Virus record (IMG/VR): IMGVR_UViG_3300031994_000051
Span: 1-64,000 of that record
DNA from: a virus
Taxonomy: Duplodnaviria; Heunggongvirae; Uroviricota; Caudoviricetes
Strand: one strand, 5' to 3'
DNA length: 64,000 nt
Positions 36,732-51,560 of the stretch are shown here, one piece after another. Numbering within the stretch: the stretch's first letter is position 1; each line of letters begins with the position of its first letter. The notes below the pieces were generated by a model. The model was not told where the DNA came from, did not search any database, and was given only the letters and a program-made list of their open reading frames with translations. The translations under genes and the position numbers were made by a program.

Positions 36732-37181
36732 ATGAAAGCTAAAGTTATCGAAACTGGAGAAATCGTAGATGTTTTCGCGTATCCTACGATATATCAAGAA
36801 GATGGTCAAGGCCCTGATAGAAGGGAATGGTATGATGACGAATTGGAAATCATACGTCCGTCTATTAAGGATTCCAAAAATAATATCGCAAAAGAATTGG
36901 TTAGGTATCTTCCATATTGCGATGACATATCAAAAGATACTAAAGAAAGATGGATTTCTTGGCTCAAAACCCAAGACGATCAAAATCCTGCAGACATTAA
37001 GCCACATTGTCCGAACGGGAGTATTCCTTACGACAGAGGGTTTGAAGAAGCTCAGGAATATCTAAGCGAAAGGGGTTTTGACATTCCTTGGAACGATTGT
37101 GATGTTTTCGTTGATACGAGGTACGTCACACAAACTATCGCTAATGTGCTAACATGGGCGGACGAACATCCAAAAATATAA
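36732..37181 (+). CDS. hypothetical protein
   Basis: Class-II-like promoter 36679-36712. Confidence 0.5.
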   Translation: MKAKVIETGEIVDVFAYPTIYQEDGQGPDRREWYDDELEIIRPSIKDSKNNIAKELVRYLPYCDDISKDTKERWISWLKTQDDQNPADIKPHCPNGSIPYDRGFEEAQEYLSERGFDIPWNDCDVFVDTRYVTQTIANVLTWADEHPKI

Positions 37182-37182
37182 T

Positions 37183-37440
37183 ATGAATAAGGAAGATATA
37201 CACGATCTGAACGGTAAGACACCATCGATCGGGGACATGATAGCTGTTTCCGTAGGATGGATGACCAACGATTCTTATATAGCAATAGCCACTGTGGATT
37301 CTTTCACAGAAACACCAAAGACAGTGACAATGAATTTCTCCATATCAAAGTCTGGACTTGGAGGATATGGGGATTATGGAACAATTCGTAAGTCTTCTTT
37401 AAGGTTCCCATCAAAGCACACAAAATTTATAATCTTATAG
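37183..37440 (+). CDS. hypothetical protein
   Basis: Tightly packed ORF. Confidence 0.4.
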   Translation: MNKEDIHDLNGKTPSIGDMIAVSVGWMTNDSYIAIATVDSFTETPKTVTMNFSISKSGLGGYGDYGTIRKSSLRFPSKHTKFIIL

Positions 37441-37442
37441 AA

Positions 37443-37907
37443 ATGGAATCAAAAGAACAAATTCAGTCATGTGAAGAGTATAAGATCTACAAAAAAAGGA
37501 TCGAAGATGCGGCCAAGAGGTATTCGTGGTCACACGACACGATCGGTGTGGACAAGGAAACTTTCGAAACAGAATCATTCAAGGGTAGACATATAAATGT
37601 AAAAAATGAAGTTAGGATTCCAGTTTTCCATGAGATGGAAGTTGCAGTCAAGTTCGGTGCAAACTTTATCATCAGGAATATGTGGATTTCCGTTGATGAA
37701 GATCTTCCTCCATATGATAAATCTGTTATAGCTATTGAATATGATTCAGATCTTCCATGGGAAGAACAACGAATATTGTTCGCTCACAGGAGCGAAAATC
37801 CAGATGTCGTCACAGACAATAATAAGTTCTGTGTCTATCCTCCAGCGATCATGAAAATAACACATTGGATTCCAGTTCCTTATCTGGAAAAGAATCAGAA
37901 CAACTAA
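37443..37907 (+). CDS. hypothetical protein
   Basis: Tightly packed ORF. Confidence 0.5.
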   Translation: MESKEQIQSCEEYKIYKKRIEDAAKRYSWSHDTIGVDKETFETESFKGRHINVKNEVRIPVFHEMEVAVKFGANFIIRNMWISVDEDLPPYDKSVIAIEYDSDLPWEEQRILFAHRSENPDVVTDNNKFCVYPPAIMKITHWIPVPYLEKNQNN

Positions 37908-37917
37908 ACGTCACAAA

Positions 37918-38307
37918 ATGTCAGTACAATATTTAGGTTGGACAACAATTAAGCAGACGGAGAGTCTCTTGAACGCTGGACTCGATCCAGATACAGCTGA
38001 TATGTATATACCGCAAGATGACAGCACTCCTGTAGTAATCGATTTTTCTCTTAAAGAACACCATGCATATTATCCATGCTGGTCCTTGGGAAAGCTTATT
38101 AGTTTGATTCCAGACTATATTTGGAACGAGAATGGATATGATATGTTCTTCCATTTGCAGAACAACTATATCAATTACGAACATTTTGTAAAGGAAAAGG
38201 ATTTTTATGTCAACGACTTCATTTCTGCTGGTAAAGGGATTGTCCAGAATGTTATAGATACTATAATTTGGTTATTAAAGGAAGGCTATATTAAGAAAGG
38301 ACATTAA
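37918..38307 (+). CDS. hypothetical protein
   Basis: Tightly packed ORF. Confidence 0.45.
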   Translation: MSVQYLGWTTIKQTESLLNAGLDPDTADMYIPQDDSTPVVIDFSLKEHHAYYPCWSLGKLISLIPDYIWNENGYDMFFHLQNNYINYEHFVKEKDFYVNDFISAGKGIVQNVIDTIIWLLKEGYIKKGH

Positions 38308-38308
38308 C

Positions 38309-38560
38309 ATGAGAAGATATATAGACGAATATTATGAGTTGCCAATATATCAAAGATATTCAGTAACACCAGAAAAAATAAAGGAGATTGTCGTTAAGAT
38401 GCATGACGAAGGATCTTCAACAGAAGCAATAGTTGAGCATCTACAAGAAGAACTATATCTTTTCTTGGACGATGAAGAAACTTCTTGGGAAGCAACCGTT
38501 GTGAACAATATAATAGAAAATAAGCCCGTATTGAACAGATTCACAAACATAGAATTTTGA
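38309..38560 (+). CDS. hypothetical protein
   Basis: Tightly packed ORF. Confidence 0.4.
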   Translation: MRRYIDEYYELPIYQRYSVTPEKIKEIVVKMHDEGSSTEAIVEHLQEELYLFLDDEETSWEATVVNNIIENKPVLNRFTNIEF

Positions 38561-38877
38561 AAATGACAACACAGAAAAAGAAAGAGATCGAGCTTGAAAC
38601 CGCCAGCTGGTTCGTGAACCTCTCTGGCATATTCGGCCACCATTACTTCTTCCTGTATGACGAGTGGAAGAAGGTCCCAGGGTTCCACGAGACCGACGCT
38701 GCACAAATTATTGCAGCTTTCCTGCATTACTGGTTCCATAACAAAACTGGATACTTCACTTGTCCGATCGGTGCTTCGTGGTTCCACGAGTGTGACGAGG
38801 AGTCATACAATGCATATATCTCTCAGTATATGCCAGTTATCAGTGCATACGAGGATTGGAGCGAGAGACAGAGGTAA
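38557..38877 (+). CDS. hypothetical protein
   Basis: ATGA overlap with upstream. Confidence 0.45.
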   Translation: MKMTTQKKKEIELETASWFVNLSGIFGHHYFFLYDEWKKVPGFHETDAAQIIAAFLHYWFHNKTGYFTCPIGASWFHECDEESYNAYISQYMPVISAYEDWSERQR

Positions 38878-38898
38878 CAAACATCAACAACAAAGGAA

Positions 38899-39252
38899 AT
38901 GACACAGGAGCAAATCACACAGAAGGCTTTAGAAGTCTATCCTATTAGCAATGTCCGTAACACACTTGGGTACATATACGACGAAAACCGTGACAAAAGG
39001 GAAGGATATATCCAAGCATTAACCGAGATCGAGTCGATGCCGAGTGTCAAAGGATGGCTGGTGAGGGATTGGATTGGAAATTTTCTATGTTTTTTCAGAA
39101 AAGGAAAGCCAATCACCAAGAGAGAAGGAAGATGGGAAGATAATGATGGACAAACTGGGGAGATATTGGGTGCCTATTATTCTGACAAAATAGATGACTT
39201 GACATGGAATTCAGAACCAGTCGATGCAGAAATCATAATTCGTACAATATAA
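38899..39252 (+). CDS. hypothetical protein
   Basis: ORF. Confidence 0.45.
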   Translation: MTQEQITQKALEVYPISNVRNTLGYIYDENRDKREGYIQALTEIESMPSVKGWLVRDWIGNFLCFFRKGKPITKREGRWEDNDGQTGEILGAYYSDKIDDLTWNSEPVDAEIIIRTI

Positions 39253-39348
39253 TGCCGATAGACTATAAATCATATTTCCAGTCAAAAGAAACAGAAAGGT
39301 GGTTGATCGCAGTTCTGAACGATCCATATGATAACAGCTATATAAAAA

Positions 39349-39717
39349 ATGACACAACAAGAAAAGAAACAGTTTAAGGAAGGTTTATTCGGATATCTTC
39401 CGTTTGGATTAAAATGTGTCGCAACAGCAACCACTGTTGATCCACACCATGTCGATATGGATGGATTCTATAAAGAAGTCGACTTTGATGCTGATGTTGA
39501 ACTCTTGTCGATCGATATCATAGTTGATCCTCTAAATGATGATCAAGGATTGTATGATTTCGTTTTCGAGGAACCTTTTACTCTAAATGAGTTTATTCCA
39601 TATCTTCGTGGCTTATTCAGCATAACAAACGAAGAGAAAATATTGGTGTTCGGATCTGAAGAATGTGATGGAAGATATTGCTATAAGGATTATCTTTATG
39701 TCGGTGACGGAATGTAA
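39349..39717 (+). CDS. hypothetical protein
   Basis: ORF. Confidence 0.45.
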   Translation: MTQQEKKQFKEGLFGYLPFGLKCVATATTVDPHHVDMDGFYKEVDFDADVELLSIDIIVDPLNDDQGLYDFVFEEPFTLNEFIPYLRGLFSITNEEKILVFGSEECDGRYCYKDYLYVGDGM

Positions 39718-39740
39718 TTTTATAAAAAATCAAATAAAAC

Positions 39741-40352
39741 ATGGCAGACAAAGAACTTATCAAGAAAGAAATTGAAAGACGGATTGAAAAATATGGGCCT
39801 GACTTTAAGACGCCATACGATGCGATGTATCAACTGTTGACTTTACTTGACTTAATCAACTCCCTTCCAGAAGAACCTGAAAGCGAGGATTTGGAAGAAG
39901 AAATTGAAAACTATATCAAGGATAGTCTTGCTATTAAGTTCCCAACAACAGACAAGGATCAAATAAAGGCTGACATCAGATATATCGCCCGTCACTTCGC
40001 TGAATGGCAGAAAGAAAAAGATTATAAAATGTATGCTCATATGTCTTTAAAAGATATACATGATGCTTGGCAAGAATTAAAAAAGAATAAGCCAGACATT
40101 GAAAAATATCCTGCTATTTGTTTTCAAAAAGGTGCAGACTGGAGAGAAAATCAGATGAAAGAAGCTCTCCAAACTGAGTATGAAAAAGGTAGGTTTGATG
40201 TGAGAGAGGAAATGATGAAAGATACTATAAATGGAATAATGGACTGTGATGATGATAATGAGTGGATTGAAATTACAGATAAACTAATTGTAACACCATC
40301 GATAGCAGGAAACAAAGTAAAAATAATCATCGTTAAAACTGAACAACAATGA
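39741..40352 (+). CDS. hypothetical protein
   Basis: ORF. Confidence 0.5.
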   Translation: MADKELIKKEIERRIEKYGPDFKTPYDAMYQLLTLLDLINSLPEEPESEDLEEEIENYIKDSLAIKFPTTDKDQIKADIRYIARHFAEWQKEKDYKMYAHMSLKDIHDAWQELKKNKPDIEKYPAICFQKGADWRENQMKEALQTEYEKGRFDVREEMMKDTINGIMDCDDDNEWIEITDKLIVTPSIAGNKVKIIIVKTEQQ

Positions 40353-40579
40353 GCAAGATTGCAGAACAAAAAGCATTGAAAATTGTAAAGCAATATGATT
40401 ATCCTTGGGATACAGGTTCTATATTTAAAGGTTATGTCCAAGGTTACGACCAAGCCATGCAAGACTTATTGGAGAAGGCTTGTGAATGGCTAATGCACAA
40501 TAATGACTGGCATGATGGTGAAGTAGACTTTTACGTCAAGAATTTCAAAAACTACATGCAAAATGAAAGCGAGAATTAA
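40349..40579 (+). CDS. hypothetical protein
   Basis: ATGA overlap. Confidence 0.4.
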   Translation: MSKIAEQKALKIVKQYDYPWDTGSIFKGYVQGYDQAMQDLLEKACEWLMHNNDWHDGEVDFYVKNFKNYMQNESEN

Positions 40580-40946
40580 ACACTCAGATAAAATCATTGA
40601 TGTTGAGTATAATATTTTCGGATGGCTTTTTGATAGTCCAGAATGCAAAAGAATTTTTAATACAGAAGAACTTGATTTTTTTGATAGTGACAATATAGAT
40701 TGGCAATCCTTCCGCAATCAAGTGGCGAAGGATATTTTGTGCGTTGTGTTTGAGAAGGCAATAAGCAGCGGAGATTTATTGTCGATTGGCTCAATACTAA
40801 ACACCTCGACTACAGAGGATCGATCGGCAAAGGTATCGCACTTGACGCTAAAGACATGTATAACAATAAAACAGAATAATAATCATGGATTACGAAAGAA
40901 AATACAAAGAACTCGTCGACAACTTCAAGTCCGTGCTGAATCTTAG
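40563..40946 (+). CDS. hypothetical protein (3' end overlaps next gene by 62 nt in another frame)
   Basis: ORF; the overlap is unusual. Confidence 0.35.
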   Translation: MKARIKHSDKIIDVEYNIFGWLFDSPECKRIFNTEELDFFDSDNIDWQSFRNQVAKDILCVVFEKAISSGDLLSIGSILNTSTTEDRSAKVSHLTLKTCITIKQNNNHGLRKKIQRTRRQLQVRAES

Positions 40947-41976
40947 GGCAGTGAAAGAAAACGGAACAATCCCAACAGAAGACGTGAGAAAACTGATTCC
41001 AGAATTGCAAACCCCAAATGACGGGGAAATAATAAAAGAACTTATCGACTATCTTGACGTCCAAGACGCTATCGCAAAAGGAAAAGATTCCGACTTCAAA
41101 AACTGGATCGCATGGCTGAAAAAACAAAACGAAAAAGAACTAGACACAAGATATAACTATCTCGAAGAATTGATCGCAGCCGACGACATCTATCAAATGG
41201 CCATGAATGACGCAATGCTAGAAGAAGCAAAAACAAAGGCCATGCAAGCACTATCGAAACTAGAAATATCAAAACTATTATTCCAAGAACGAGAGGGAAA
41301 AGGGTGTACTGATTTGATAAAAGAATTAAATAATTATATTGAAAATACACCAGAAAAACAACGCGAAAACGATTGGAATGAACTTAAACCATATAGTAAT
41401 CCAGACTCTAATAAATTTAAAGTTGAAGGCTATCAAAGTGATGATGGAAAGATGGAACATCAAATTGCAATAGAAACAGTTAATGCATTGTATCATAAAA
41501 AGCCTGCTGAGTGGAGTGAAGAGGATGAAGAAATGTTTGACGCTGTTATTGCTGATATACAATTTACGCAGAAAGCTCATAATCACGAAGTCAACCAAGT
41601 TGTTTATGAAAGAGAAATTGATTGGCTTAAATCCATCAAAGACAGAATACAACATCAATCAAAACAAGAATGGAGTGAGTATGACAAAATCCAACTTAGC
41701 GAAGCAATACAAATGATTGAAGCAAATGGTACTTGGATTAGAAGTAAAGATGCTGTTAAGAAAGTATCAAATTGGCTTAAATCCCTCAAGCCACAATCAA
41801 GTCTATATGATAAAGGTTATAACGATGGTTATTCTGCTGCAAAGTATAACAGTTGGAAGCCGAGCGAGGAACAGATGAAATGGTTAAAAGATGTCATTGA
41901 AACCGTCCCTATGACTTGTAGGCAGCAAATTTCATTAGAATCACTTTACAACGACCTTAAAAACTTTAAATCATGA
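40885..41976 (+). CDS. hypothetical protein (363 aa)
   Basis: ORF. Confidence 0.55.
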   Translation: MDYERKYKELVDNFKSVLNLRAVKENGTIPTEDVRKLIPELQTPNDGEIIKELIDYLDVQDAIAKGKDSDFKNWIAWLKKQNEKELDTRYNYLEELIAADDIYQMAMNDAMLEEAKTKAMQALSKLEISKLLFQEREGKGCTDLIKELNNYIENTPEKQRENDWNELKPYSNPDSNKFKVEGYQSDDGKMEHQIAIETVNALYHKKPAEWSEEDEEMFDAVIADIQFTQKAHNHEVNQVVYEREIDWLKSIKDRIQHQSKQEWSEYDKIQLSEAIQMIEANGTWIRSKDAVKKVSNWLKSLKPQSSLYDKGYNDGYSAAKYNSWKPSEEQMKWLKDVIETVPMTCRQQISLESLYNDLKNFKS

Positions 41977-42398
41977 CAAAAGAAGAAAAAGAATTACTCC
42001 TTAAAGATATTTGTTCAAGATTACCGCATAGAGTAAAAGTGAACATTTCGGCATCAATCAAATATGATAACTACATTCCATCCATAAATGATGCCACTAT
42101 TATAGCATTAGACCTTCGTAACGAAAGATGTAACTTTAATGAGTTTTATTGGGATAAAGAAATTGTAAATGTTCGTCCATATCTCCGTCCAATGTCAAGT
42201 ATGACTGAGGAGGAAAAATCTACTTATCTTTCGTATTGTGAATGTGATGATGGTGATTATACAGGTGAAACTATATATTTTGATACTATAGAGTCTTTTG
42301 ACTATCTTAATCAAATTCATGTAGATTATAGAAACTTGATTCCTAAAGGTCTTGCATTAGAAGCACCAAAAGGGATGTATAATATTAAAACTGAATAA
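41973..42398 (+). CDS. hypothetical protein
   Basis: ATGA overlap. Confidence 0.5.
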   Translation: MTKEEKELLLKDICSRLPHRVKVNISASIKYDNYIPSINDATIIALDLRNERCNFNEFYWDKEIVNVRPYLRPMSSMTEEEKSTYLSYCECDDGDYTGETIYFDTIESFDYLNQIHVDYRNLIPKGLALEAPKGMYNIKTE

Positions 42399-42400
42399 TT

Positions 42401-42970
42401 ATGGAACAATTTTCATTAGAAAAATGGCTCCAAGACAAGAGTCGTAAAATCCGTACAAGAGACGGTAGAGCAGTAAGAATACTTTGTACTGACGCAAAGG
42501 CAAAAGATGGTTGTTGCATAATTGCAGCAATAGAAACAGATGGTGAAGAAGAAGGCTACCAATTTTTTAAGGATGGTACAGCTTATTCAAGTAAATCTTC
42601 AATAGAAGATTGTGCTGACCTTTTCTTTGCAGACGAGAAAAATGAATTAACGGAGTTTGACTATGCAGTTTTATCAATAATTTCAGACCACAATAGTCAT
42701 ACTGATTCAATTGAAGCGTTTGCAAAAAGAAGCTCAAAGAAACTTCTCGACTTGGCAAGAAAGCAACTTGAATCGAACTATTATGACATGGGTAAACAAG
42801 ATGCCTTGAAAGACTTGCCGAAGTTAGAAAAGACTAAAGATGTGATTGACCCAACAATACCAGTGATGTACACTAATTCTGCATCAATGAAAAGCTATGT
42901 GGAATATAATGGATATAAATTATGCATCAACGATGTGTTTGAGAAACTATCAAAAGAAGAACAACAATGA
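42401..42970 (+). CDS. hypothetical protein
   Basis: Last gene before the non-coding block. Confidence 0.5.
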   Translation: MEQFSLEKWLQDKSRKIRTRDGRAVRILCTDAKAKDGCCIIAAIETDGEEEGYQFFKDGTAYSSKSSIEDCADLFFADEKNELTEFDYAVLSIISDHNSHTDSIEAFAKRSSKKLLDLARKQLESNYYDMGKQDALKDLPKLEKTKDVIDPTIPVMYTNSASMKSYVEYNGYKLCINDVFEKLSKEEQQ

Positions 42971-43129
42971 TACGAGAAGAGACAAGAACACAATGATCTC
43001 ACTCCTGCAAAAGGAAACAGGAATGGGCTGCATGGATCTAAGCAAAAAATCGGCACTTTCCTCGAAGCACTAAAAAGAATATCACACCAACCCTGCGATG
43101 TAGGACTAAGAATGAAAATAGAGTGAGAG

Positions 43130-43995
43130 ATGTATCCACTAAGATAGTCTATAAAAAACAAACCACCATCCCTCCCATAACATGAACATCATAGACCATA
43201 TACTCCAAAACACTAACCTCACCCCATACAAAATATGCGCCAGATACAACATCATCAACGAACCAACAATAGCCATCCCACTGCTATCAGACCTCACACC
43301 CCAAGAAATCTCCAAACTATCCCCCTCACTAACACACCACCACGACAACACCATCTCACAAATCACCACCCAAGAACTCGACAACCTACTACACATCATA
43401 AACATCCCACTGGAATTCCACCCCGTCACCCTGCCACTCACAATCATATCCTCCAAACCACTACCCCTCACCGCCAAACCATCACACGAAGAACCGTTCA
43501 TATACATAATATCCCCATAAACCCACAAAAACACACCGTACAGACACTTTACAACAAAAAACACCCACCAACCCCACCAACCAACCAAAAACCCCTCCAC
43601 AACCACAAAAACGACCTCCATACCAAATAAGATCGATCACCCACTCACAAAAATACATCAAAAAACCAATTTTTCAATAAAAACAAAAACAAAAACCAAA
43701 TTTTTCCAGAATTTTCCAGAATTTTCAAAAAACAATACAGAACAATTAAAACAACCAAAACAAACAGGATCGATCCAAACCATAAAACCCCAACCATTCT
43801 AAAACAAACAAAAACACAACCAACAATAACCACACAAACAACCAACAATATAACAACACCCATATACGAAGTATATGGAATACACAAAATATACACCAAC
43901 CATAACATATCCCAATATACCAATAACAATAATACTATACACATCACCCTATACCCCCATATATATACCCATAACAATATAACCAAACCCAATCA
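43130..43995 (+). other. ~870-nt G-depleted A+C-rich non-coding tract (plus strand almost only A and C, few T)
   Basis: Direct reading. ORF-track products here (His/Pro/Thr-rich on plus, Trp/Gly/Val-rich on minus) are compositional artefacts. Confidence 0.8.
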
Positions 43996-44345
43996 ATCCA
44001 GATAAAACTATTATGGAAATGATATGTACATTGTAAATCAATGACTTAATTTGTTTTCCCACCACATTTCCATACAAAAACACCCCCGTCAGCGCCACAT
44101 CTGGATCGATCCACTATCAACAACACACAAACACCTGTAAAACAATATTATAACCGACATCAAACAAAGGGAAATCAAACACCTGAAAATGGAGCGATCG
44201 ATCGCCCTGAAAATCAACTGGTTATCAATATCCTTGAAAGAAAGTGTTTGACATACAACAAGTTATACAAATGAGGGGGATCGATCTTAAAAACGAAAAT
44301 TTAGCACTTTTTTCTTGGTTAAATACCTGTGTATCAGGATGTTAG

Positions 44346-44430
44346 ATGGCACTTCCGAATACCCTTTTTTAGGGCACTTCCGAATACCCTTTTTTAGGGC
44401 ACTTCCGAATACTACTTCCGAATATTAGTT
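44346..44430. repeat. iteron set A: 2 full + 2 partial copies of GGGCACTTCCGAATACCCTTTTTTA (core ACTTCCGAAT x4)
   Basis: Tandem direct repeats read at 44346-44430. Confidence 0.8.
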
Positions 44431-44473
44431 TTAGATCCCATTGGGATCTCTAATCTGGACGAAGTTATTGATT

Positions 44474-44582
44474 GCACTTCCGTTTACAATTCCGTTTACA
44501 CTTCCGTTTACACTTCCGTTTACAATTCCGTTTACAATTCCGTTTACAATTCCGTTTACAATTCCGTTTACTAATTCAAAGT
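44474..44582. repeat. iteron set B: 9 tandem 12-bp units (A/C)TTCCGTTTACA
   Basis: cacttccgtttaca attccgtttaca cttccgtttaca ... attccgtttac. Followed by the perfect 14-bp palindrome GTTTCATGTGAAAC (44585-44598) and an AT-rich stretch to ~44700. Confidence 0.85.
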
Positions 44583-45013
44583 GTTTCATGTGAAACGTTT
44601 AATATAAAACGTTTATTATCAATGAGTTAGAAAACTTATATGAAAATATAGCATATATTGGTATAATGAATCATATAACATGGCATTACGATCGATCACA
44701 TTATAGGTTCCCAATGGGATCGTAACTGGTGATTTTGGCGTTTTGATCGTTGTCATATATGTCTTTTGGAACTAATATGTTGGTGAATCCCTTTGATGTT
44801 CAGTGTTTTATGATCCAAATGGGATCGATCTTTCGTGTTTTTCTGTTTCTTCACATATCGTTTAGCCGTCAGAATCGTGTGCGGGCAAGGTTCCATGCAT
44901 GGTTGTTCAGGGCGAGGATCCAGTTGGGATCTTTCCATCCACGGTAAGGATATGTTCCATGATGCCAAACATCAATCATGTGAAGGGAAAGATATAAAAA
45001 TTTCTGAAAAATC

Positions 45014-45050
45014 TTTGCACGTATTGGTATTTTCCGTATCTTTGCATCGT
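45014..45050 (+). promoter_or_regulatory. class-II promoter (array)
   Basis: ...tattttccgTATCTTTGCAtcgt. Confidence 0.5.
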
Positions 45051-45061
45051 AATTAAAATCT

Positions 45062-45208
45062 ATGGTTATGAATAAGAACGTATGTTTGTCAAAGGGTTGC
45101 CCTTATTTGGTAAAGAAGACAATTTATTTTCCGTGGTATGAGAAGATGTACATGTGTGCGAAGCGTTTCATGGTTGACGTGAGCAAGGTTGTTGGATGTG
45201 AAAAGTGA
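45062..45208 (+). CDS. array cassette 1: 48-aa Cys-containing peptide
   Basis: First ATG after class-II promoter 45014-45050. Hairpin+T-run 45243-45271. Confidence 0.3.
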   Translation: MVMNKNVCLSKGCPYLVKKTIYFPWYEKMYMCAKRFMVDVSKVVGCEK

Positions 45209-46116
45209 ATGATTATCAATTGTTTATTTTCGATTGCTTATAGTCGTCCTCTGTCGGGGGCGACTTTTTTGCTGATTACCCTCAATGGATGGTGAACTCA
45301 TGGGATGATCGATCGGTTAGATGGATCCCAATGGGATCGTAACCTGTTGACATCGAGGTTGTTGACGAAGAAGTCCTATGACTCTTCTTGTTTTTCTATA
45401 GTGCTGGTTGCGAAATGTTAAAATCATGATTGAAAAATGGCGATAAACCCAATAAAAAGTTTGTCGTTTTCGAGGTGTTTTCTGCATTTATTAATTTTTA
45501 TTAAGATTTATGTAAATGATTGATGTTTAATGATTTACGATGATGCGAGTTCAAAAAGTCCCCTATAGGGGAAAATTGGTTTTTTGGGTGTGGTTTATGG
45601 TTGTTTTTTGAAATGTTAAAAATGGTGTCCGAAACTGTTGATGGAACGAGTGTTCATGTCGGCGTGTTATCGATCCCATTCGGATCCGTGTCTGGGTTGG
45701 ACATCCGACGGGGGTCGGTTTGGTGACGGACGACTACTACTTCGTCCGTCGTGATCTGGTTATGGATCCCGATGGGATCTGTACTGGATCTTCCCAGCAT
45801 CGTTGTCTAGAGAGTGTCTGCATGGGATGCGCAGAGAAATGGCCTGCCTTCTGGGGAAGGATCCGAGTTGGATCCAATACTGTTGTGGATGCATGGGCCT
45901 TCATGTGAGTTTCCTGCTCATGCATGGAATTTCCTGGGTGTCGGATCCGAGTGGGATCGATCCCGTCGAGTCCAGAAAACCTGCGTAATTTTTGGTGGAT
46001 TCTCTTGACCCGTCCAAAAAATTTTCGTGACGCTGTATAGCTGGGTGTCGGATCCGAGTGGGATCAGTATCCTGTGGGACCTTCTTTCTCCCTGTATGAA
46101 AATTTTTCAGATTTTC

Positions 46117-46150
46117 CTTGACACGTGTCATATTTTTCCGTATCTTTGCC
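46117..46150 (+). promoter_or_regulatory. class-II promoter
   Basis: CTTGACAcgtgtcatatttttccgTATCTTTGCc. Confidence 0.6.
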
Positions 46151-46173
46151 GAGTAATTCAAAAACATAGAGTC

Positions 46174-46365
46174 ATGAAGGAAATATTGAAAGTGTTCTTT
46201 ATATTGCTTGTTGCTGTGTTCGTTGTTCCGCTGCTTTGGTTGTTAATCAAAGAGATATGGTGGCTTATAGTCCCGTTGTTCGCTGGGATTGTGATCGGTG
46301 ACATATTTTGGGTTGCCGTGCTCGTCATATCAATAGTTGTGATTATATGGGCTTTGGCGAGCTGA
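46174..46365 (+). CDS. array cassette 2: 63-aa two-TM membrane peptide
   Basis: Promoter 46117-46150. Hydrophobic MKEILKVFFILLVAVFVVPLLWLL... Confidence 0.5.
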   Translation: MKEILKVFFILLVAVFVVPLLWLLIKEIWWLIVPLFAGIVIGDIFWVAVLVISIVVIIWALAS

Positions 46366-46985
46366 AATTTGGTTTCGCTTGTTTCATAATCGTTTAATTG
46401 TTGGCGGTGGCCGATTCCGAGTATCGGGGTCGGCCATTCGTTTTTTGAAGGGCAATCCGACACTCATTCGGGGCAGGCACTGTGGGAGGATCCCAACGGG
46501 ATCGATCCACGCCGTGGACAGACAAAGTCGCGGGTATCACCGATATGCCTCTGATGGCCATCCAGCTGGAATTCGGATGAGGATCCCAACGGGATCGATC
46601 GGGACGTGCCAGCATATTCTACGTGTTCTTGGCAGTGGATGGGTATGCAAGAAATAGGCTTCACTCTTGACTGGAACGATCCGATTCGGATCCTTACTGG
46701 GAAAATCCAGACTCTTGTTCGGGAAGGCGGCTCTGAGGAAGGTGTCCCGTGATCGAATATCGGATCCGATTCGGATCCTTCTCTGTCAAGAAAAAGTGGA
46801 ATCTCCGTACATGGTAGGATTCCAACGTCTGGTTGTTCAGGATGCAGATCCTAACGGGATCGATCGGCTGGGAAACCATTGTTTTGATCGATCCAGATTT
46901 TTTCTGTTGATTGTTTTTGTAAATTATTGTAAAATAATTAGTTACAAAGATTAGAAAAAATAATTGAAACTTTTTTGAAAAAATG

Positions 46986-47020
46986 CTTGCCAATTCGGGA
47001 AAAAGTTGTACCTTTGTAGC
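46986..47020 (+). promoter_or_regulatory. class-II promoter variant (TACCTTTG), embedded in the ~115-bp conserved upstream module 46910-47022
   Basis: cttgccaattcgggaaaaagttgtacctttgtagc. Confidence 0.5.
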
Positions 47021-47084
47021 ACAAACAAAGGGGGAAACCCCGAAGGACAGACAACACAATTATCAACAATCTAAATTCAAAGTT

Positions 47085-47411
47085 ATGGAAAACAATATCG
47101 AAACCATCACAATCGCAATCAACGGAAAGAGTTACAGACTTGTAGAGGTCAGCGCGGAGCAGGCAAATGGTGAGAAAACCATGTGTCTTGTCACGTTGGT
47201 GACACCTGTCGGTGGAATCACCAAAGCATATCCATTGAAGGATATTTGCGTCCCCGAGGGGACATACGACAACGAGGGCGACCGCTTCATCGTGCGCCAC
47301 TGCACGGACGCGGAGTTCGAGGAGTACAAGAAGCACGCAAAGGAAATAGAGGAGCCAGCCATGCTGCTGCAAGTCCTGCTTGACGTTGCATTGTCGGAAA
47401 TCGACTGCTAA
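47085..47411 (+). CDS. array cassette 3: hypothetical protein
   Basis: Promoter 46986-47020; terminator 47437-47478. Confidence 0.55.
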   Translation: MENNIETITIAINGKSYRLVEVSAEQANGEKTMCLVTLVTPVGGITKAYPLKDICVPEGTYDNEGDRFIVRHCTDAEFEEYKKHAKEIEEPAMLLQVLLDVALSEIDC

Positions 47412-47436
47412 ACTGATTTTTGCCATAATTTTTTAG

Positions 47437-47478
47437 GTCGGGGTTGTCCCTTTCGGGGGCGACCCCTTCCTTTTTTTG
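47437..47478 (+). terminator. intrinsic terminator (cassette 3)
   Basis: GC-rich hairpin gtcgggg...cgacccc + T7. Confidence 0.6.
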
Positions 47479-47877
47479 TGTGTGTCGGCAAGCAACTTCC
47501 GTCGGCAGGAATAAAGGCGGATGCTGGGCAGGATCGATCCCGTTGGGATCCCGTCCAGCCGACGAAGACTTCCATGAGGCGGGAGGTTACTTCGGTGAAG
47601 ACACATCGATGGACATCGATGGGACGATCCAACTGGGATCCGTCACGGCGGAGGGTACCACTCTCTATGTATGTCTTCTTTTCTTCGGCATTTCTTCGGC
47701 ATTTGGTGGCGGATGCGGATTGGCCCCAGTAAGGATCCCAATGGGATCTGTGTCGATCGAGAACCATGACTGCATCCTTTCTTAGAATTTTTCTTGGTTT
47801 TTGTTTTTGTAAATTATTGTAAATTAATTAGTTACAAAAATTAGAAAAAATAATTGGAAAATTTCTCGATTTTTTAT

Positions 47878-47911
47878 CCGTTGTATTGATATTTTTCCTA
47901 TCTTTGCAAAG
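47878..47911 (+). promoter_or_regulatory. class-II promoter, within conserved module 47800-47912
   Basis: ccgttgtattgatatttttccTATCTTTGCAaag. Confidence 0.55.
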
Positions 47912-48008
47912 TAATAAAATATTGTTGTAAGATTATCTATAAGAATCTAAACAACTTGTGTTAAAAACAACAAAGACATAGTTATAAACCATCAAAAATT
48001 AAAGAGTT

Positions 48009-48575
48009 ATGGCAAAACAAATTACAAAGTCACAACTTCAAGCAATGCTTGAAAACATTCAAGGCGAAACCGAAATCACAGTCACAGTCAAGGGCGAGGT
48101 CAAGATGAACAAGACAAACAACCCTTTTTACGAGAAGCAGGGTCGCGCTTGGGTAGCGAAGGATAATGTTGAGAAAATACAAACGAGCGTGTACGCTTTC
48201 GGCGGATCGTATGAGGAAAGGGTCAACGAGGCTCTCGTTGCAGACGGAAGCGCAGGCGACTTCAAGGCCGCTTCGTTGCCGTGGGGCGAGTGGATTGTGG
48301 AGGGCAAGACCATTTCCCACAACGGCAAGGTGTACGCCCGTTGCTACATCGTGGAGGGAAAATCGTCTGTTGTTTCAGTGTCGTACTTGGTCAACGGCAA
48401 GGAAGCCACATCGGAGCAGGAGCAGAGCATCAAGGACTTCACCCCAGAGAAGAAGCCGAGCGCGAAGCAGGAGGCCGCAGGGCTTGAAAGTGGAAAGCAG
48501 GTAATCCCCAATAACATCGACTTGGACAAGGTTGTCCGCGTTGAGGTTGACGGGGCGGAGTACGAAATCGCATGA
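48009..48575 (+). CDS. array cassette 4: hypothetical protein
   Basis: Promoter 47878-47911; terminator 48599-48636. Confidence 0.6.
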   Translation: MAKQITKSQLQAMLENIQGETEITVTVKGEVKMNKTNNPFYEKQGRAWVAKDNVEKIQTSVYAFGGSYEERVNEALVADGSAGDFKAASLPWGEWIVEGKTISHNGKVYARCYIVEGKSSVVSVSYLVNGKEATSEQEQSIKDFTPEKKPSAKQEAAGLESGKQVIPNNIDLDKVVRVEVDGAEYEIA

Positions 48576-48598
48576 CGGAATGTCAGTGACAAAATGTC

Positions 48599-48636
48599 AG
48601 GGGCGGCTCACTTGGTGGGTCGCCCTTTCCTTTTCC
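48599..48636 (+). terminator. intrinsic terminator (cassette 4)
   Basis: gggcgg...tcgccc + T-run. Confidence 0.6.
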
Positions 48637-49213
48637 ATTCCAGACAAGACCGACAGAGTTGGTGGAGGATCGCTGAATCGGATCCCATCGGGATCGATCG
48701 CCCTGGTGAATCCAGGGATGTCTGGACATCCCCTGGTATCCCGTCCAGTTCGGATCCCATCGGGATCGATCACTGTCCAGCATTCACCTCTTCCTCCTGC
48801 CGAAAAATTCAGCAAGGTTTTTTTGAAAAGTTTTCCAGATAAATATCCTGATTTCTTCTATGATTTTCCCACGGAAAATCCCATCGGGTTTTTCTTCATT
48901 TTCCCCGTGGGTTTTTTCCGTGGTTTTGGGCGGGGATTCCAGAGACTGGCCTCCCCGCCTTCTTTGTCTGGCAAACCCCCCCAAGAGATGTGATCCGTGA
49001 AGGAAGTCATTGGATCCCAATGGGATCGATCCTGTGGCCATCTCGTGTTCCATCTCGAACACGGCGTATTATGGATCCCGATGGGATCGATTCAGAACAG
49101 GTCCCCTTTCTTATTCCTTTTTCTGTAAGTTTTTGGTAATGTTTTTGTAAATTATTGTGAATCAAATTGTTACAAAGATTATCAAAAATAATTGAAAAAA
49201 ATCTCTCAAAATA

Positions 49214-49250
49214 CTTGACATATTGATTTTTTTCGTATCTTTGCTTCGTC
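49214..49250 (+). promoter_or_regulatory. class-II promoter, within conserved module 49130-49250
   Basis: CTTGACAtattgatttttttcgTATCTTTGCttcgtc. Confidence 0.6.
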
Positions 49251-49300
49251 AAACGACAAAGGGAAACAAACAATTTACAAACAATCTAAAACACAAGACT

Positions 49301-49597
49301 ATGGCAAAGCAACACAAAATTTACTGCGAAGGCTGCTATTGCAGGCCAATGCAGGTAATCGACAAGAACGGCAACACGGAATGGCGTTGGGTGGTGGTCA
49401 CATTTTCTGACGACTGCACCGAGAACGGCGAGGAAGTGGACATCAATGTCAAAGCGAAAACCGAGGAAGGGCTGGTCAATTCATCCGAGAGCGAGGACAA
49501 TGGCGAAACCGAGAAAATCGTCAAGAACTCAATGACGATGAAAGACCTCTACAAGGGAATCCCTGGCCTCGACCCAGACATGGACGAAGACATCTGA
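49301..49597 (+). CDS. array cassette 5: hypothetical protein (N-terminal CxxC, acidic C-terminus)
   Basis: Promoter 49214-49250; terminator 49627-49664. Confidence 0.55.
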   Translation: MAKQHKIYCEGCYCRPMQVIDKNGNTEWRWVVVTFSDDCTENGEEVDINVKAKTEEGLVNSSESEDNGETEKIVKNSMTMKDLYKGIPGLDPDMDEDI

Positions 49598-49626
49598 CGA
49601 CTTGTCTGTCCAGCATGACAAGATGG

Positions 49627-49664
49627 CCGACATCACTTTGGTGGTGTCGGCTTTCCTTTTTCGT
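49627..49664 (+). terminator. intrinsic terminator (cassette 5)
   Basis: gccgacatcac-tttggtg-gtgtcggc + T-run. Confidence 0.65.
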
Positions 49665-50122
49665 CAAGCTGCTCAGGAAAATCGTGATCCTTCGGTCCAG
49701 ATTCTGATCCCATTGGGATCCAAGACGCTGGATACCAGACTCTTGGATGTATGAACTCGGGTGGTCAGGACGACCTTGAGTCTGGAAAGGTTCCCGTGAT
49801 CTGGTATGGATCCGAGTGGGATCGATCGACAGGTCCCGTCGAGACTCTCTTCTTTGACGACAGGGTGGTATTGAGTACATGACGACATTGATCCTGAAGA
49901 TGTACTTTTGATCTGGTATGGATCCAAATGGGATCGATCCTGTCAGAATCTTGTTCTCTCGATGTCGTGCCTGTTAACTATTCGGTTCATTGTGCAAGAT
50001 TACTCTCACGAGATACTCAACCGTCGGTTAATCCGTTGGATCCCAATGGGATCCGTGATGACCGACGAAGTTTTCTTCGTTTTTTATTCCATAATTTTCC
50101 AGAAAAATTTTTTCCGTTTTTT

Positions 50123-50160
50123 CTTGCGTGGTATTCGGAAAATACTTATCTTTGCATCGT
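50123..50160 (+). promoter_or_regulatory. class-II promoter
   Basis: CTTGCGTggtattcggaaaatactTATCTTTGCAtcgt. Confidence 0.6.
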
Positions 50161-50182
50161 CAAACTTAAAATAAGAAAAACT

Positions 50183-50722
50183 ATGGAAAAAAGAAACGGA
50201 AAATTCGTGGGGAAAAAGGACATTCCCTTCGACAACGACAAAATCGCGGACATTCTTCAACTTAAATGCCGCATACTTGAAATGTTCAGGTCGCGCAATG
50301 TTACCGTAAGTTTCGCCCAGAACATTCCGAACGAGAACTACTATACAGCCGCAAGCGACTTCTCTAAGCTGATGAGTACGGAGCTTACAGTCAGGTTCAA
50401 GCCAGTTACGTCAAAGCGTGGGCTTGTTCAGAGGGGGGCTGGTTTGTGCAAGCGCAAGGTGTCGGCGATCGATCCTTGCGTGCATATCATGTTCTACAAC
50501 CAGCAGGGAATCGACGAGGTGACTGGTGATAGCGAGATACAGCCTTGTGTTTTCATAGGGGTTCATGGGTTTCAGGAAAGGGGATACAGGAAACATCATT
50601 GGGCAGACTATTCTCCGAAGCCTTCCTTCGGCTATGGATATGAAATAGAAACTTTGTGGCAAGATGCGGTCAAACCAGCTATGAATCAAATTTGGAACGA
50701 CATCAACTTGCTGATAGAGTGA
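50183..50722 (+). CDS. array cassette 6: hypothetical protein
   Basis: Promoter 50123-50160; terminator 50744-50780. Confidence 0.6.
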   Translation: MEKRNGKFVGKKDIPFDNDKIADILQLKCRILEMFRSRNVTVSFAQNIPNENYYTAASDFSKLMSTELTVRFKPVTSKRGLVQRGAGLCKRKVSAIDPCVHIMFYNQQGIDEVTGDSEIQPCVFIGVHGFQERGYRKHHWADYSPKPSFGYGYEIETLWQDAVKPAMNQIWNDINLLIE

Positions 50723-50743
50723 TTGTTATAGAAGCAATAAGGT

Positions 50744-50780
50744 AACGGCTTGGGCTTGTGTCCGAGCCGTTTCTTTTTTG
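50744..50780 (+). terminator. intrinsic terminator (cassette 6)
   Basis: acggcttgggc...gagccgt + T-run. Confidence 0.6.
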
Positions 50781-51020
50781 TGTGATAGTACGTCTTGACA
50801 CAGATGAGTCAGTGGATGCCCGTCGATCAGATCCCGATGGGATCCGTTACAGTGGGTTCAGGATCACCATGAGTCCGAGGTTGCGATTGACTTGCTTGAT
50901 GGACTTGGACGTCAATCATCTCGATGCCAGCTGGTTAGGATCCCATTGGGATCGTAACTGGGCATTCGCTGCCGATTCGATCGTCGAATTTTTGTCGAAT
51001 TTTTTCTGAAAACAAAAACA

Positions 51021-51056
51021 AAAAAATCCGCACAATTTTTGTACGGATTTTCTTTG
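51021..51056. terminator. bidirectional terminator (cassette 7 end)
   Basis: atccgcacaa-ttttt-gtacggat flanked by A-run and T-run. Confidence 0.5.
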
Positions 51057-51071
51057 GGGTTTTTCTGGAAT

Positions 51072-51257
51072 TTATTTCGGGAAAACCTCGTCAGCGTATG
51101 CTGTGAAAGTGTTGCCGCTTTCTCCTTGCAGGGTGTATTCCGTGCAGAACGCACCATCCTTGATGTCGGTTATCGTGAAAACCTTGTTTGCATCTGGTGT
51201 TTCCCCGTATGCACCGAACCTGACTTGTTTGCCGATTGTGAATTTTTTAATATCCAT
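51072..51257 (-). CDS. array cassette 7b: hypothetical protein (co-transcribed with 7a)
   Basis: 7 nt after 7a. Bidirectional terminator 51021-51056. Confidence 0.45.
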   Translation of the reverse strand: MDIKKFTIGKQVRFGAYGETPDANKVFTITDIKDGAFCTEYTLQGESGNTFTAYADEVFPK

Positions 51258-51263
51258 TGATTT

Positions 51264-51506: not shown

Positions 51507-51520
51507 TATTCCGTTTGTTT

Positions 51521-51560
51521 GATGATGCAAAGATAAGCATTTTTCCTATACCACGCAAGG
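51521..51560 (-). promoter_or_regulatory. class-II promoter (minus strand)
   Basis: rc: ccttgcgtggtataggaaaaatgcTTATCTTTGCAtcatc. Confidence 0.6.

What the first reader, a model, noticed from the sequence alone, without database searches (positions are those of the whole stretch)
43130..43995. ~870-nt strand-asymmetric, G-depleted A+C tract at the boundary between the conventional genome and the cassette array
The plus strand is almost entirely A and C for ~870 nt, containing short motifs such as ccaaccaaaaacccc, ccagaattttccagaatttt and caaacaaaaaca. This is not coding (compositional ORFs only) and not a simple tandem repeat. Extreme keto/amino skew over this length is rare. It could be a G-less transcribed RNA, a ssDNA-binding or packaging region, a DNA end (terminal repeat or telomere-like) if the virion DNA is linear, or a replication or transcription barrier separating the two genome domains.
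Basis: seen in the sequence. Interest (0 to 1): 0.6.

Follow-up and report, generated by a model that had tools for sequence, protein, structure and literature searches.

The report
Gene and RNA written almost only in A and C
A roughly 1-kb stretch of a very large rumen phage genome is kept almost free of G and T on one strand by natural selection; it holds a real small gene plus a conserved untranslated tail, so its RNA cannot fold, and it most likely stops transcription before a replication/partition-like region.

Summary
Window 43130-43995 is A 45%, C 34%, G 4.5%, T 16% on the + strand. It is the only such stretch in the 64 kb. It recurs identically in three other assemblies and at 83-98% identity in four diverged relatives, so it is not an artefact.

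ORF 43182-43520 (112 aa) has dN/dS of 0.16-0.27. Changes by codon position are 17/7/39 (p = 3e-6), and there are no indels. Its third codon positions are 94% A or C, against 44% in normal genes of this phage.

The remaining 475 nt are non-coding. One block, 43766-43995, is the most conserved part of the region. The few G and T sit in conserved palindromes: GATCGATC twice and one hairpin.

Half of all substitutions between relatives are A<->C, and transitions are depleted. This points to selection against G and T rather than deamination bias.

The + RNA is essentially structure-free, C-rich and G-poor. It ends a ~7-kb operon that has no intrinsic terminator, and it lies just upstream of iterons and a parS-like site.

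Best reading (about 0.35): an oversized Rho-loading terminator/insulator. Rivals are a DNA-level element tied to an origin, another role for an unstructured RNA, and a mutational footprint. No homologue or described family was found.

The parts
42967..43126 (+). orfA-homologous segment. It is an intact 52-59-aa ORF in L007, L020, L022 and L023, but frameshifted in the window lineage. T depletion at synonymous sites already starts here.
   Evidence: Alignment and translations. Third-position T is 4% in L007. Changes by codon position are 5/6/8, so coding is unproven.
43150..43181 (+). Conserved A/C-rich leader (..AACCACCATCCCTCCCATAAC-ATG) in front of ORF112. It is duplicated in front of an extra small ORF in L020, L022 and L023.
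   Evidence: It occurs once in the window; chance expectation is 0.
43182..43520 (+). ORF112, a real 112-codon gene of unknown function written in A/C-rich codons (no Gly, no Trp).
   Evidence: dN/dS is 0.21, 0.27 and 0.16 in this frame, against 0.56 or more in the other five frames. Changes by codon position are 17/7/39, chi-square p = 3e-6, with 0 gap columns. Third positions are A 41, C 53, G 4, T 2%. It is an orphan: one 89% relative among 5.8e9 and 1.84e9 proteins.
43521..43646 (+). nc1, the most C-rich and G-poor untranslated stretch (C 40-43%, G 2-3%). It includes a 45-nt run of A and C only. It is the best candidate Rho-loading core.
   Evidence: No coding periodicity. 14% divergence from L020 with no indels.
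43631..43638 (.). Invariant GATCGATC palindrome inside the tract.
43647..43765 (+). nc2, an A-tract/T-tract segment with TTTTCCAGAA x2.5. It is the indel-prone part of the tract.
   Evidence: 20 gap columns against L020.
43766..43995 (+). nc3, the most conserved block of the region. It is non-coding and starts with GGATCGATCC (43767-43776).
   Evidence: 6.6% divergence from L020, against 13.6% for ORF112 (dS 0.40) and 27-33% for the iterons. Two 1-nt indels, and a 35-codon ORF with 4 non-synonymous to 1 synonymous changes (read from the alignment).
43859..43879 (.). Conserved hairpin CCATATAC-GAA-GTATATGG. It is one of the few places in the tract where G and T are kept.
   Evidence: Identical in the window, L007 and L020.
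43996..44170 (+). G-poor shoulder of the tract (G 8-13%) with a third GGATCGATCC at 44103-44112.
   Evidence: the C>G bubble extends to 44167.
44348..44597 (.). Context, not part of the tract. Direct repeats of 25 nt x2.6 and 12 nt x8.2, a GATCCC-N3-GGGATC hairpin and a parS-like 16-mer, followed by AT-rich DNA. This is an origin- or partition-like region that the tract would shield.

Best explanation
The tract is a conserved, functional unit transcribed on the + strand. It consists of a small gene (ORF112) and about 475 nt of untranslated sequence. Both are held by purifying selection in an alphabet of A and C, whose members cannot pair with each other, so the RNA is essentially structure-free, C-rich and G-poor.

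That is the signature of a Rho-utilisation (rut) region. The tract sits at the 3' end of a roughly 7-kb rightward operon that has no intrinsic terminator. It lies immediately upstream of an iteron/parS-like region and the cassette array.

The proposed mechanism is as follows. Once ribosomes leave at the ORF112 stop codon (43518-43520), host Rho loads on nc1 and the sequence after it. Rho then releases RNA polymerase before it can run into the origin/partition-like region. This insulates the two genome domains from each other.

Shown: the composition, the coding status of ORF112, selection against G and T, the lack of RNA structure, the absence of an intrinsic terminator, and the position.

Inferred: transcription through the whole tract, Rho loading, and termination.
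For: Rut-like properties on the + strand:
- %C-%G in 70-nt windows exceeds 0.2 almost continuously from 43130 to 44167, with two short breaks (43710-43725, 44020-44027), and reaches 0.49. No other sense-strand region of the window exceeds 0.26.
- YC dinucleotide density is 0.18 against 0.10 for the window.
- MFE per nt is -0.02 to -0.05 against -0.24 for the background. Mean probability of being unpaired is 0.83 against 0.48.
- Rut sites are defined as C-rich, G-poor, unstructured C>G bubbles with YC repeats, with an optimal length of 60-90 nt (PMC9160355; PMC12360218).

Position:
- The + strand genes are packed from 36732 to 42970.
- The last Bacteroidetes-type + promoter before the tract is at 36680 and the next is at 45015.
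- There is no + strand intrinsic-terminator-like site between 36000 and 45242, whereas cassettes of the array do have hairpin-plus-T-run terminators.
- Upstream genes read into the tract in the relatives too, although they are different genes.

Selection rather than drift:
- A<->C makes up 51 of 102 substitutions against L020, and transitions 38 of 102. In 7.3 kb of flanking homologous DNA the A<->C plus G<->T class is 29% and transitions are 53%.
- Third positions of ORF112 are 94% A or C. The lowest T3 among 68 other genes is 0.13, against 0.02 here.
- Non-coding block nc3 diverges by 6.6%, far below the synonymous divergence of the adjacent gene, dS 0.40.
Against: - The tract is about ten times longer than a rut site needs to be.
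- Rho does not require U depletion, yet U is avoided as strongly as G.
- A translated ORF is normally shielded from Rho, so the composition of ORF112 itself is not explained by this model.
- Strong conservation of nc3, with its hairpin and GATCGATC palindromes, suggests sequence-specific recognition beyond a generic rut.
- No expression or 3'-end data were available.
- The RNA preferences of Bacteroidetes Rho were not checked here.
- The host is only inferred, from promoter motifs and the rumen origin of the samples.
Confidence: 0.35

Rival explanations
1. A DNA-level element of the adjacent origin- or partition-like region. In this reading the strand that cannot self-pair (the + strand), or its G+T-rich complement, serves as a single-strand loading or priming zone. 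Alternatively it is a persistent D-loop or R-loop next to the iterons, for helicase, primase, SSB or recombinase.
For: - The tract ends about 350 nt from two sets of direct repeats, a parS-like 16-mer and AT-rich DNA.
- Conserved DNA palindromes punctuate the tract and continue into the iteron region: GATCGATC at 43631, 43768, 44104, 44196, 44279 and 44690.
- A leftward transcript would be G 34%, C 4.5%, which is highly R-loop prone (composition).
- One Bacteroidetes-type leftward promoter match lies in the tract at 43677-43648.
Against: - The promoter match is what chance gives in this composition (about 0.75 expected by my own calculation from the base frequencies), and its -33 part is not conserved.
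- Stable R-loops favour purine-rich RNA, whereas the leftward RNA would be G/U-rich.
- There is no canonical G-quadruplex or i-motif pattern.
- A + strand gene under protein-level selection shows that the + strand is expressed.
- Cumulative GC skew shows no polarity switch here.
- The identity of the iteron region as an origin is itself unproven.
Confidence: 0.2
2. A structure-free RNA selected for a purpose other than termination. One option is an mRNA and tail that escape endoribonucleases needing G or U, or that are translated very efficiently in a host that does not use Shine-Dalgarno pairing. Another is a decoy or sponge that titrates a host factor binding single-stranded C/A-rich RNA, Rho included.
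For: - This reading uses the same evidence for selection on the + strand RNA.
- It explains why coding and non-coding parts share the composition, and why U is avoided as well as G. A/C is one of only three two-letter alphabets that cannot pair.
- The residual G and U are concentrated in a few conserved structured islands: fold z-score -5.4 although MFE is only -19 kcal/mol for 475 nt.
- The conserved leader is duplicated before each small ORF in relatives.
Against: - No repeated short motif stands out that would mark a binding array.
- There is no Rfam family.
- No partner factor is known.
- Unstructured 3' tails are normally degraded quickly by 3' exonucleases.
- Nothing here shows abundance of the RNA.
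Confidence: 0.2
3. A mutational footprint without function. The minus strand would spend long periods single-stranded, and C->T and A->G deamination there would drive the + strand towards A and C, as on the vertebrate mitochondrial L strand.
For: - Against the genome average, G loses 17 points and A gains 14. T loses 14 and C gains 16. Purine content is almost unchanged, 0.52 to 0.50. This is exactly the pattern two transitions would give.
- The tract is close to an origin-like region.
- The T-poor domain (42967-43950) and the G-poor domain (43150-44170) are offset, like two gradients.
Against: - At equilibrium such a bias predicts at least as many transitions as the background. The observed transition to A<->C ratio is 0.73, against 1.8 in the flanks, and transition divergence is 4.5% against 6.8%.
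- The residual G and T sit at first and second codon positions and in conserved palindromes.
- nc3 is under strong constraint.
- The edges are sharp, within about 100 nt.
- A purine/pyrimidine-coded search found no unmutated paralogue in the window.
Confidence: 0.08
4. A physical genome end, pac site or telomere-like terminal sequence of a linear virion DNA.
For: - The G+T-rich complement is loosely reminiscent of telomeric strands.
- Three short contigs end inside the tract: L004 at 43397, L022 at 43782 and L023 just before ~43710.
Against: - There is no repeat unit.
- The window and several long contigs read through: the ENA 173-kb contig, L007 at 32.6 kb and L020 at 44.8 kb.
- The three contig ends share no common position; two fall in the strain-variable indel zone nc2 and one inside ORF112.
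- The break in the ENA assembly is at 41454-41594, a mosaic junction, not in the tract.
- The tract contains a gene under selection.
Confidence: 0.04

Closest known systems
Rho-utilisation (rut) sites of Rho-dependent terminators (for example lambda tR1; C>G bubbles)
   Same: It is C-rich, G-poor and unstructured, with a high YC density. It lies in untranslated RNA after a stop codon, at an operon end that lacks an intrinsic terminator (definitions in PMC9160355 and PMC12360218).
   Different: It is about 1 kb long instead of 60-90 nt. U is also depleted. The composition is imposed on an upstream translated gene. It contains strongly conserved sequence blocks and palindromes. Dependence on Rho is untested.
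Strand compositional asymmetry of vertebrate mitochondrial DNA (A+C-rich L strand; D-loop region)
   Same: The sense strand is rich in A and C, and third codon positions are almost devoid of G. The tract lies next to a putative origin. The direction of change equals G->A plus T->C (mtDNA facts are from my own knowledge).
   Different: It is confined to about 1 kb with sharp edges. Transitions are depleted rather than abundant among relatives. Non-coding parts are under strong constraint.
G-less or CA-rich unstructured translational leaders (TMV Omega; CA-multimer enhancers in E. coli)
   Same: These are G-depleted, A/C-rich and structure-free sequences next to start codons. Here a conserved A/C leader precedes each small ORF. 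The comparison rests on my own knowledge.
   Different: Those elements are tens of nucleotides long and lie 5' of the gene. Here the property covers the gene itself and 475 nt downstream of it.
Poly(C) tracts of cardioviruses and aphthoviruses
   Same: Both are long, compositionally extreme, strand-specific tracts in a viral genome whose function has been hard to pin down (own knowledge).
   Different: Those are near-homopolymeric, in RNA virus 5' UTRs, and variable in length. This one is a complex, conserved two-letter sequence in a dsDNA phage, and it includes a gene.
R-loop-primed origins (ColE1 RNA II, T4 oriF/oriG, mitochondrial CSB II)
   Same: There is strong G/C strand skew next to an origin-like region. 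A transcript of the G-rich strand would hybridise stably to the C-rich template (composition; comparison from own knowledge).
   Different: The required promoter is not convincingly present or conserved. The RNA would be G/U-rich rather than purine-rich. The opposite strand carries a gene under selection.

Membership tests
Rho-dependent terminator (rut region) | C>G compositional bubble over at least 60-90 nt of the transcript | tested here: met
   %C-%G exceeds 0.2 almost continuously from 43130 to 44167 (two short breaks) and peaks at 0.49 in 70-nt windows.
Rho-dependent terminator (rut region) | Little RNA secondary structure | tested here: met
   MFE per nt is -0.02 to -0.05 against -0.24. 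P(unpaired) is 0.83 against 0.48.
Rho-dependent terminator (rut region) | The site lies in RNA not covered by ribosomes | tested here: inconclusive
   43521-43995 shows no coding signal, but 43182-43520 is translated.
Rho-dependent terminator (rut region) | Transcript 3' ends downstream that depend on Rho | not testable with these tools
   No transcriptome, Term-seq or biochemical data were available. The only indirect support is the absence of an intrinsic terminator between 36000 and 45242 on the + strand.
Deamination-driven strand asymmetry (mitochondrial type) | Substitutions dominated by transitions, with flux equal to or above the background | tested here: not met
   Transitions are 37% of changes in the tract against 53% in the flanks, while A<->C is 50% (the A<->C plus G<->T class is 29% in the flanks).
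Deamination-driven strand asymmetry (mitochondrial type) | Skew strongest at unconstrained sites, with no sequence-level constraint | tested here: inconclusive
   The skew is strongest at third codon positions, as predicted. However, non-coding nc3 is more conserved than synonymous sites.
Terminal repeat or telomere-like end | A short unit repeated in tandem, at a physical end of the DNA | tested here: not met
   TRF finds no array spanning the tract. Long contigs read through it. Read-end data were not available.
Known RNA families (Rfam 15) | Match to a covariance model | tested here: not met
   Only a chance-level hit outside the tract (E = 0.2) in 42000-46000.
Known protein families (for ORF112) | Match to Pfam or PHROGs, or homologues outside the lineage | tested here: not met
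   No family matched. Only one 89% relative was found in two very large protein searches. No loci turned up in genome or IMG/VR scans. The AF2 model has low confidence, pLDDT 43.
R-loop-primed replication origin | A promoter directing a G-rich transcript across the C-rich template towards the start site | tested here: inconclusive
   One leftward TTG-N-TAnnTTTG match at 43677-43648. That is the number expected by chance in this composition, and it is only partly conserved.

The most novel reading that the evidence does not exclude
A phage has placed about 1 kb of sequence, a working protein-coding gene together with a conserved non-coding RNA segment, into a two-letter A/C alphabet whose members cannot base-pair, and selection holds it there. 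This would be a natural 'structure-free' nucleic acid with only a few deliberately retained palindromic islands. Its role would go beyond an ordinary terminator. It could be a trap or decoy for the host Rho or another factor that binds single-stranded RNA, or a single-strand landing zone for the adjacent origin/partition machinery.
Probability: 0.3. Interest if true: 0.8.

Novelty: new variant of a known kind. Interest (0 to 1): 0.6.

Why it matters
Selection on nucleotide composition strong enough to recode a gene is unusual: third positions are 94% A or C, and the protein has no Gly and no Trp. Holding an adjacent non-coding block more constant than synonymous sites is unusual too. Together they give a clean natural test case of what a completely unstructured RNA, or a single DNA strand that cannot self-pair, is good for.

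If the tract is a Rho-dependent insulator, it would show three things:
- how a very large Bacteroidetes phage separates a long operon from an origin/partition-like region and from a huge array of independently promoted cassettes;
- that rut-type signals can be scaled up tenfold;
- that such signals can overlap coding sequence.

There is also a practical lesson. Standard gene callers annotate the wrong strand here, so such genes are invisible in protein databases.

Tried and rejected
- Homology of the tract DNA to deposited phages, in near and distant modes: no match.
- Rfam: nothing. tRNA/tmRNA: none.
- Hypermutated copy of another sequence. A purine/pyrimidine-recoded BLAST of the tract against the rest of the window, both strands, scored no better than shuffles: best 60 bits, against 54-66 for the shuffles.
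- Minus-strand ORFs, which are the ones gene callers pick. They have no family and dN/dS of 0.56 or more, or stop codons in relatives. They were useful only as handles to find relatives.
- Remote homologues of ORF112 and orfA: none.
- Structure prediction of ORF112 gave pLDDT 43, so it was not used.
- Repeated binding motif or periodicity in the non-coding part: only T-tract words and a weak period of about 10 nt.
- G-quadruplex or i-motif: no four-run C3 pattern.
- Long-range complementarity of the tract to G/T-rich patches: only 13-17-nt matches, E of 0.006 or higher.
A conserved 19-mer gave only chance hits, and the hairpin motif gave none.
- More distant relatives of the neighbouring 189-aa gene (28-55% identity) carry neither the tract nor the array within reach.
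- Literature searches found only the general definition of rut sites and nothing describing such a tract.

Full report
WHAT IS THERE. On the + strand, window 43130-43995 is A 45.3%, C 34.1%, G 4.5%, T 16.2%. The window as a whole is 30.8/17.8/21.6/29.7. In 150-nt windows A+C averages 0.487 (sd 0.069). All windows at or above 0.70 form a single run, 43101-43876, reaching 0.88. GC skew for 43001-44000 is -0.65. Tandem Repeats Finder sees only three arrays of 25-39 nt inside the tract. The limits are slightly wider than stated: T depletion starts at about 42967, and G stays at 8-13% until about 44170.

NOT AN ARTEFACT; THE GENOME. The window belongs to a tailed phage. It carries a large terminase, Hsp70/DnaK, an SPFH-domain protein, and further left DNA polymerase B, a clamp-loader-like AAA protein and a 5'-3' exonuclease. 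Promoters are of the Bacteroidetes type, TTG-N17-23-TAnnTTTG. All samples that hold the phage are rumen or related metagenomes.

The same tract is 100% identical in a Logan assembly (SRR9006654), 99.95% identical in a JGI contig and present in an ENA contig of 173 kb. In that ENA sample the left part of the window lies on a separate 90-kb contig, which overlaps the 173-kb contig by about 141 nt at 41454-41594. The genome is therefore at least about 263 kb. Diverged copies of the tract exist in L007 (98%), L022 (87%), L023 (88% over the shared 508 nt) and L020/L021 (83%). No deposited phage, IMG/VR contig or bacterial genome holds it.

PART OF IT IS A GENE. Five frames are, but one is not. ORF 43182-43520 (112 aa) keeps its start, stop and length in all lineages, with no gap column.
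- Its dN/dS is 0.21, 0.27 and 0.16 in three comparisons.
- The antisense frame whose wobble positions coincide gives 0.56-0.58, and the other frames 0.8-4.7.
- The minimum number of changes by codon position is 17/7/39 (chi-square p = 3e-6). The next 270 nt, counted in the same phase, give 13/14/16 (p = 0.85).

The gene is written in A/C-rich codons. Third positions are A 41, C 53, G 4, T 2%, against 26/18/23/33 in ordinary + strand genes. Among 68 other likely genes the lowest third-position T is 13%. T survives mainly at second positions (34%, hydrophobic residues) and G at first positions (12%, Asp/Glu/Ala/Val).

The protein has no Gly and no Trp. It has no family, one 89% relative in two very large protein searches and no confident fold. 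Automatic gene callers mostly chose the G+T-rich minus-strand ORFs instead.

A conserved leader..ACCATCCCTCCC..ATG, precedes the gene. In L020, L022 and L023 the leader is duplicated around an additional 34-48-codon ORF.

A further small ORF, orfA, lies upstream. It is 52-59 aa in the relatives, and its third-position T is already only 4%. It is frameshifted in the window lineage, and its coding status is unproven.

THE REST IS CONSERVED NON-CODING SEQUENCE. From 43521 to 43995 no frame shows coding behaviour. Indels of 1, 9 and 11 nt occur, and the only long open frame lacks a start codon and is not conserved. Divergence from L020 by block is as follows:

| Block | Divergence from L020 |
|---|---|
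| ORF112 | 13.6% (dS 0.40) |
| nc1 (43521-43646) | 14.3% |
| nc2 (43647-43765) | 12.7%, plus 20 gap columns |
| nc3 (43766-43995) | 6.6% |
| Iterons further right | 27-33% |

So nc3 is more constrained than synonymous sites of the neighbouring gene. Between the window and L007 there is not one difference in 43165-43646, although the backbone differs by 2-3.4%.

The few G and T in this half sit in conserved palindromes: GATCGATC at 43631 and 43768, and the hairpin CCATATAC-GAA-GTATATGG at 43859-43879. Accordingly the RNA folds far better than its shuffles (z = -5.4), although the total is only -19 kcal/mol for 475 nt.

SELECTION OR MUTATION BIAS? The net change from the genome average looks like G->A plus T->C with purine content unchanged. 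That is what deamination of a single-stranded minus strand would give, as in vertebrate mitochondria. The substitutions among relatives argue otherwise.
- In the tract A<->C accounts for 51 of 102 differences from L020, and transitions for 38.
- In 7.3 kb of flanking homologous DNA the A<->C plus G<->T class is 29% and transitions are 53%.
- A chi-square I computed from these counts gives about 24 on 3 degrees of freedom.

A deamination bias at equilibrium should keep transition flux at or above the background level. Here transition divergence is lower (4.5% against 6.8%) while A<->C divergence is higher (6.0% against 3.8%). Changes that create G or T are being removed, and changes within the A/C alphabet pass. 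Singleton changes show the same pattern: 37 A<->C against 14 A>G or C>T. A purine/pyrimidine-coded search found no unmutated paralogue in the window. I conclude, with moderate confidence, that the composition is held by selection acting on one strand.

WHAT PROPERTY IS SELECTED? A and C cannot pair with each other. The + strand RNA is nearly structure-free: MFE per nt is -0.02 to -0.05 against -0.24, and P(unpaired) is 0.83 against 0.48. The complementary RNA folds normally. Because the + strand carries an expressed gene, an RNA-level property is the simplest reading.

The RNA is also C-rich and G-poor, with twice the background density of YC dinucleotides. It forms a near-continuous C>G bubble from 43130 to 44167 that peaks at 0.49. 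That is the accepted description of Rho-utilisation sites (PMC9160355; PMC12360218).

CONTEXT. To the left, + strand genes are tightly packed from 36732 to 42970. They lie behind the last host-type + promoter at 36680. No + strand intrinsic terminator-like site occurs until 45242, after the first cassette.

To the right lie the following elements:
- 25-nt x2.6 direct repeats;
- a GATCCC-N3-GGGATC hairpin;
- 12-nt x8.2 direct repeats, whose copy number differs between relatives;
- a parS-like 16-mer, with 2 mismatches to TGTTTCACGTGAAACA here and 1 mismatch in L007 and L020;
- AT-rich DNA.

Then the cassette array begins, with its own promoters and hairpins and a higher GC content. It runs beyond the window to at least 73.8 kb.

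The conserved module starts exactly at orfA. Upstream of that point the relatives carry different genes, always reading into the tract.

BEST EXPLANATION AND RIVALS. I favour an extended Rho-dependent terminator/insulator (about 0.35). After the ORF112 stop codon, Rho would load on nc1 and the sequence beyond it, and stop the 7-kb operon before it invades the origin/partition-like region and the array.

The weaknesses of this reading are:
- the tenfold excess length;
- the equally strong avoidance of U, which Rho does not require;
- the recoding of a translated gene, which Rho would not see;
- the sequence-specific conservation of nc3.

The rivals are:
- A DNA-level single-strand or R-loop zone serving the adjacent iterons (0.2). 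It is weakened by the lack of a convincing leftward promoter, by a G/U-rich rather than purine-rich leftward RNA, and by the absence of G4 motifs.
- A structure-free RNA with another purpose, such as RNase evasion, translation, or a decoy for an RNA-binding factor (0.2). No motif array or partner is known.
- A pure mutational footprint (0.08).
- A physical terminus or pac site (0.04).

An artefact is excluded.

COMPARISON AND NOVELTY. The nearest described things are rut sites, mitochondrial strand asymmetry, G-less CA-rich translational leaders and viral poly(C) tracts. The tract meets the sequence criteria of a rut region, but its defining functional criterion could not be tested. It fails the transition-flux expectation of deamination-driven asymmetry, it has no repeat unit as a telomere would, and it matches no RNA or protein family.

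I found no description of a kilobase-scale, selection-maintained A/C-only segment that spans a gene and a conserved non-coding block. I therefore rate it a new variant of a known kind (a rut-like terminator region). There is a substantial chance that it is something not yet described.

Noticed in passing
window 44582-44597; L007 about 8985-9000; L020 (reverse strand): A parS-like palindrome, TGTTTCATGTGAAACG, with 2 mismatches to the canonical TGTTTCACGTGAAACA. The relatives carry TGTTTCACATGAAACA, with 1 mismatch. It is conserved in position right after the 12-nt repeats. A second 2-mismatch copy lies at 57659-57674. Chance expectation for 3 or fewer mismatches is 0.57 per window. This hints at ParB loading or partition, and so at a plasmid-like lifestyle.
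   Followed up: partly
window 44348-44412 and 44478-44577: Two iteron-like sets sharing the core CTTCCG(A/T)(A/T)TAC: a 25-nt unit x2.6 (100% matches) and a 12-nt unit, TTCCGTTTACAA, x8.2. AT-rich DNA follows. Copy number and sequence differ between the window, L007 and L020.
   Followed up: partly
window 44434-64000 and on to at least 73.8 kb (L032): An array of roughly 1-kb cassettes. Each has a Bacteroidetes-type promoter, one or a few small ORFs of unknown function and GATCC-N5-GGATC hairpins. 54 of the 55 hairpin copies lie right of 44434. GC is 0.44, against 0.37 to the left. Some cassettes have classical hairpin-plus-T terminators.
   Followed up: partly
whole window: GATC occurs 592 times, against about 225 expected from base frequencies. 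GATCGATC occurs 68 times, 52 of them right of 44000. This suggests GATC methylation or a protein that reads these palindromes (the expectation is my own arithmetic).
   Followed up: no
window 42967-43126: The small ORF orfA is intact in four related lineages (52-59 aa). In the window lineage it is broken by a 2-nt insertion near the start and an A7-to-A6 change. The same broken version is present in the independent assemblies L003 and L004.
   Followed up: partly
L020, L022 and L023, between orfA and ORF112 (corresponds to window about 43150): An extra 34-48-codon ORF is inserted between two copies of the ..ACCATCCCTC.. leader. This points to gain or loss of small genes by recombination between repeated leaders.
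   Followed up: partly
window 41454-41594; L007 against window 39787-40308 and 41289-42791: The ENA assembly breaks the genome into a 90-kb and a 173-kb contig that overlap by about 141 nt here, so the genome is at least about 263 kb. L007 has two replaced segments just upstream of the tract, and L020 and L023 have a different upstream gene (342 aa). The tract module therefore starts at a mosaic junction.
   Followed up: partly
window 8433-10340, 2744-3271, 29165-31249, 33128-33763: The phage encodes a full-length Hsp70/DnaK (E = 1.7e-211), a guanylate kinase, a 694-aa protein with an SPFH/Band 7 domain whose gene includes a purine-rich stretch (AT skew 0.33 at 30-31 kb), and a transposase-like protein.
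   Followed up: no
window 45572-45613 and 47794-47810: Short G/T-rich patches in array spacers are complementary to pieces of the A/C tract (perfect matches of 15 and 17 nt, E 0.085 and 0.006). This is probably low-complexity coincidence.
   Followed up: partly
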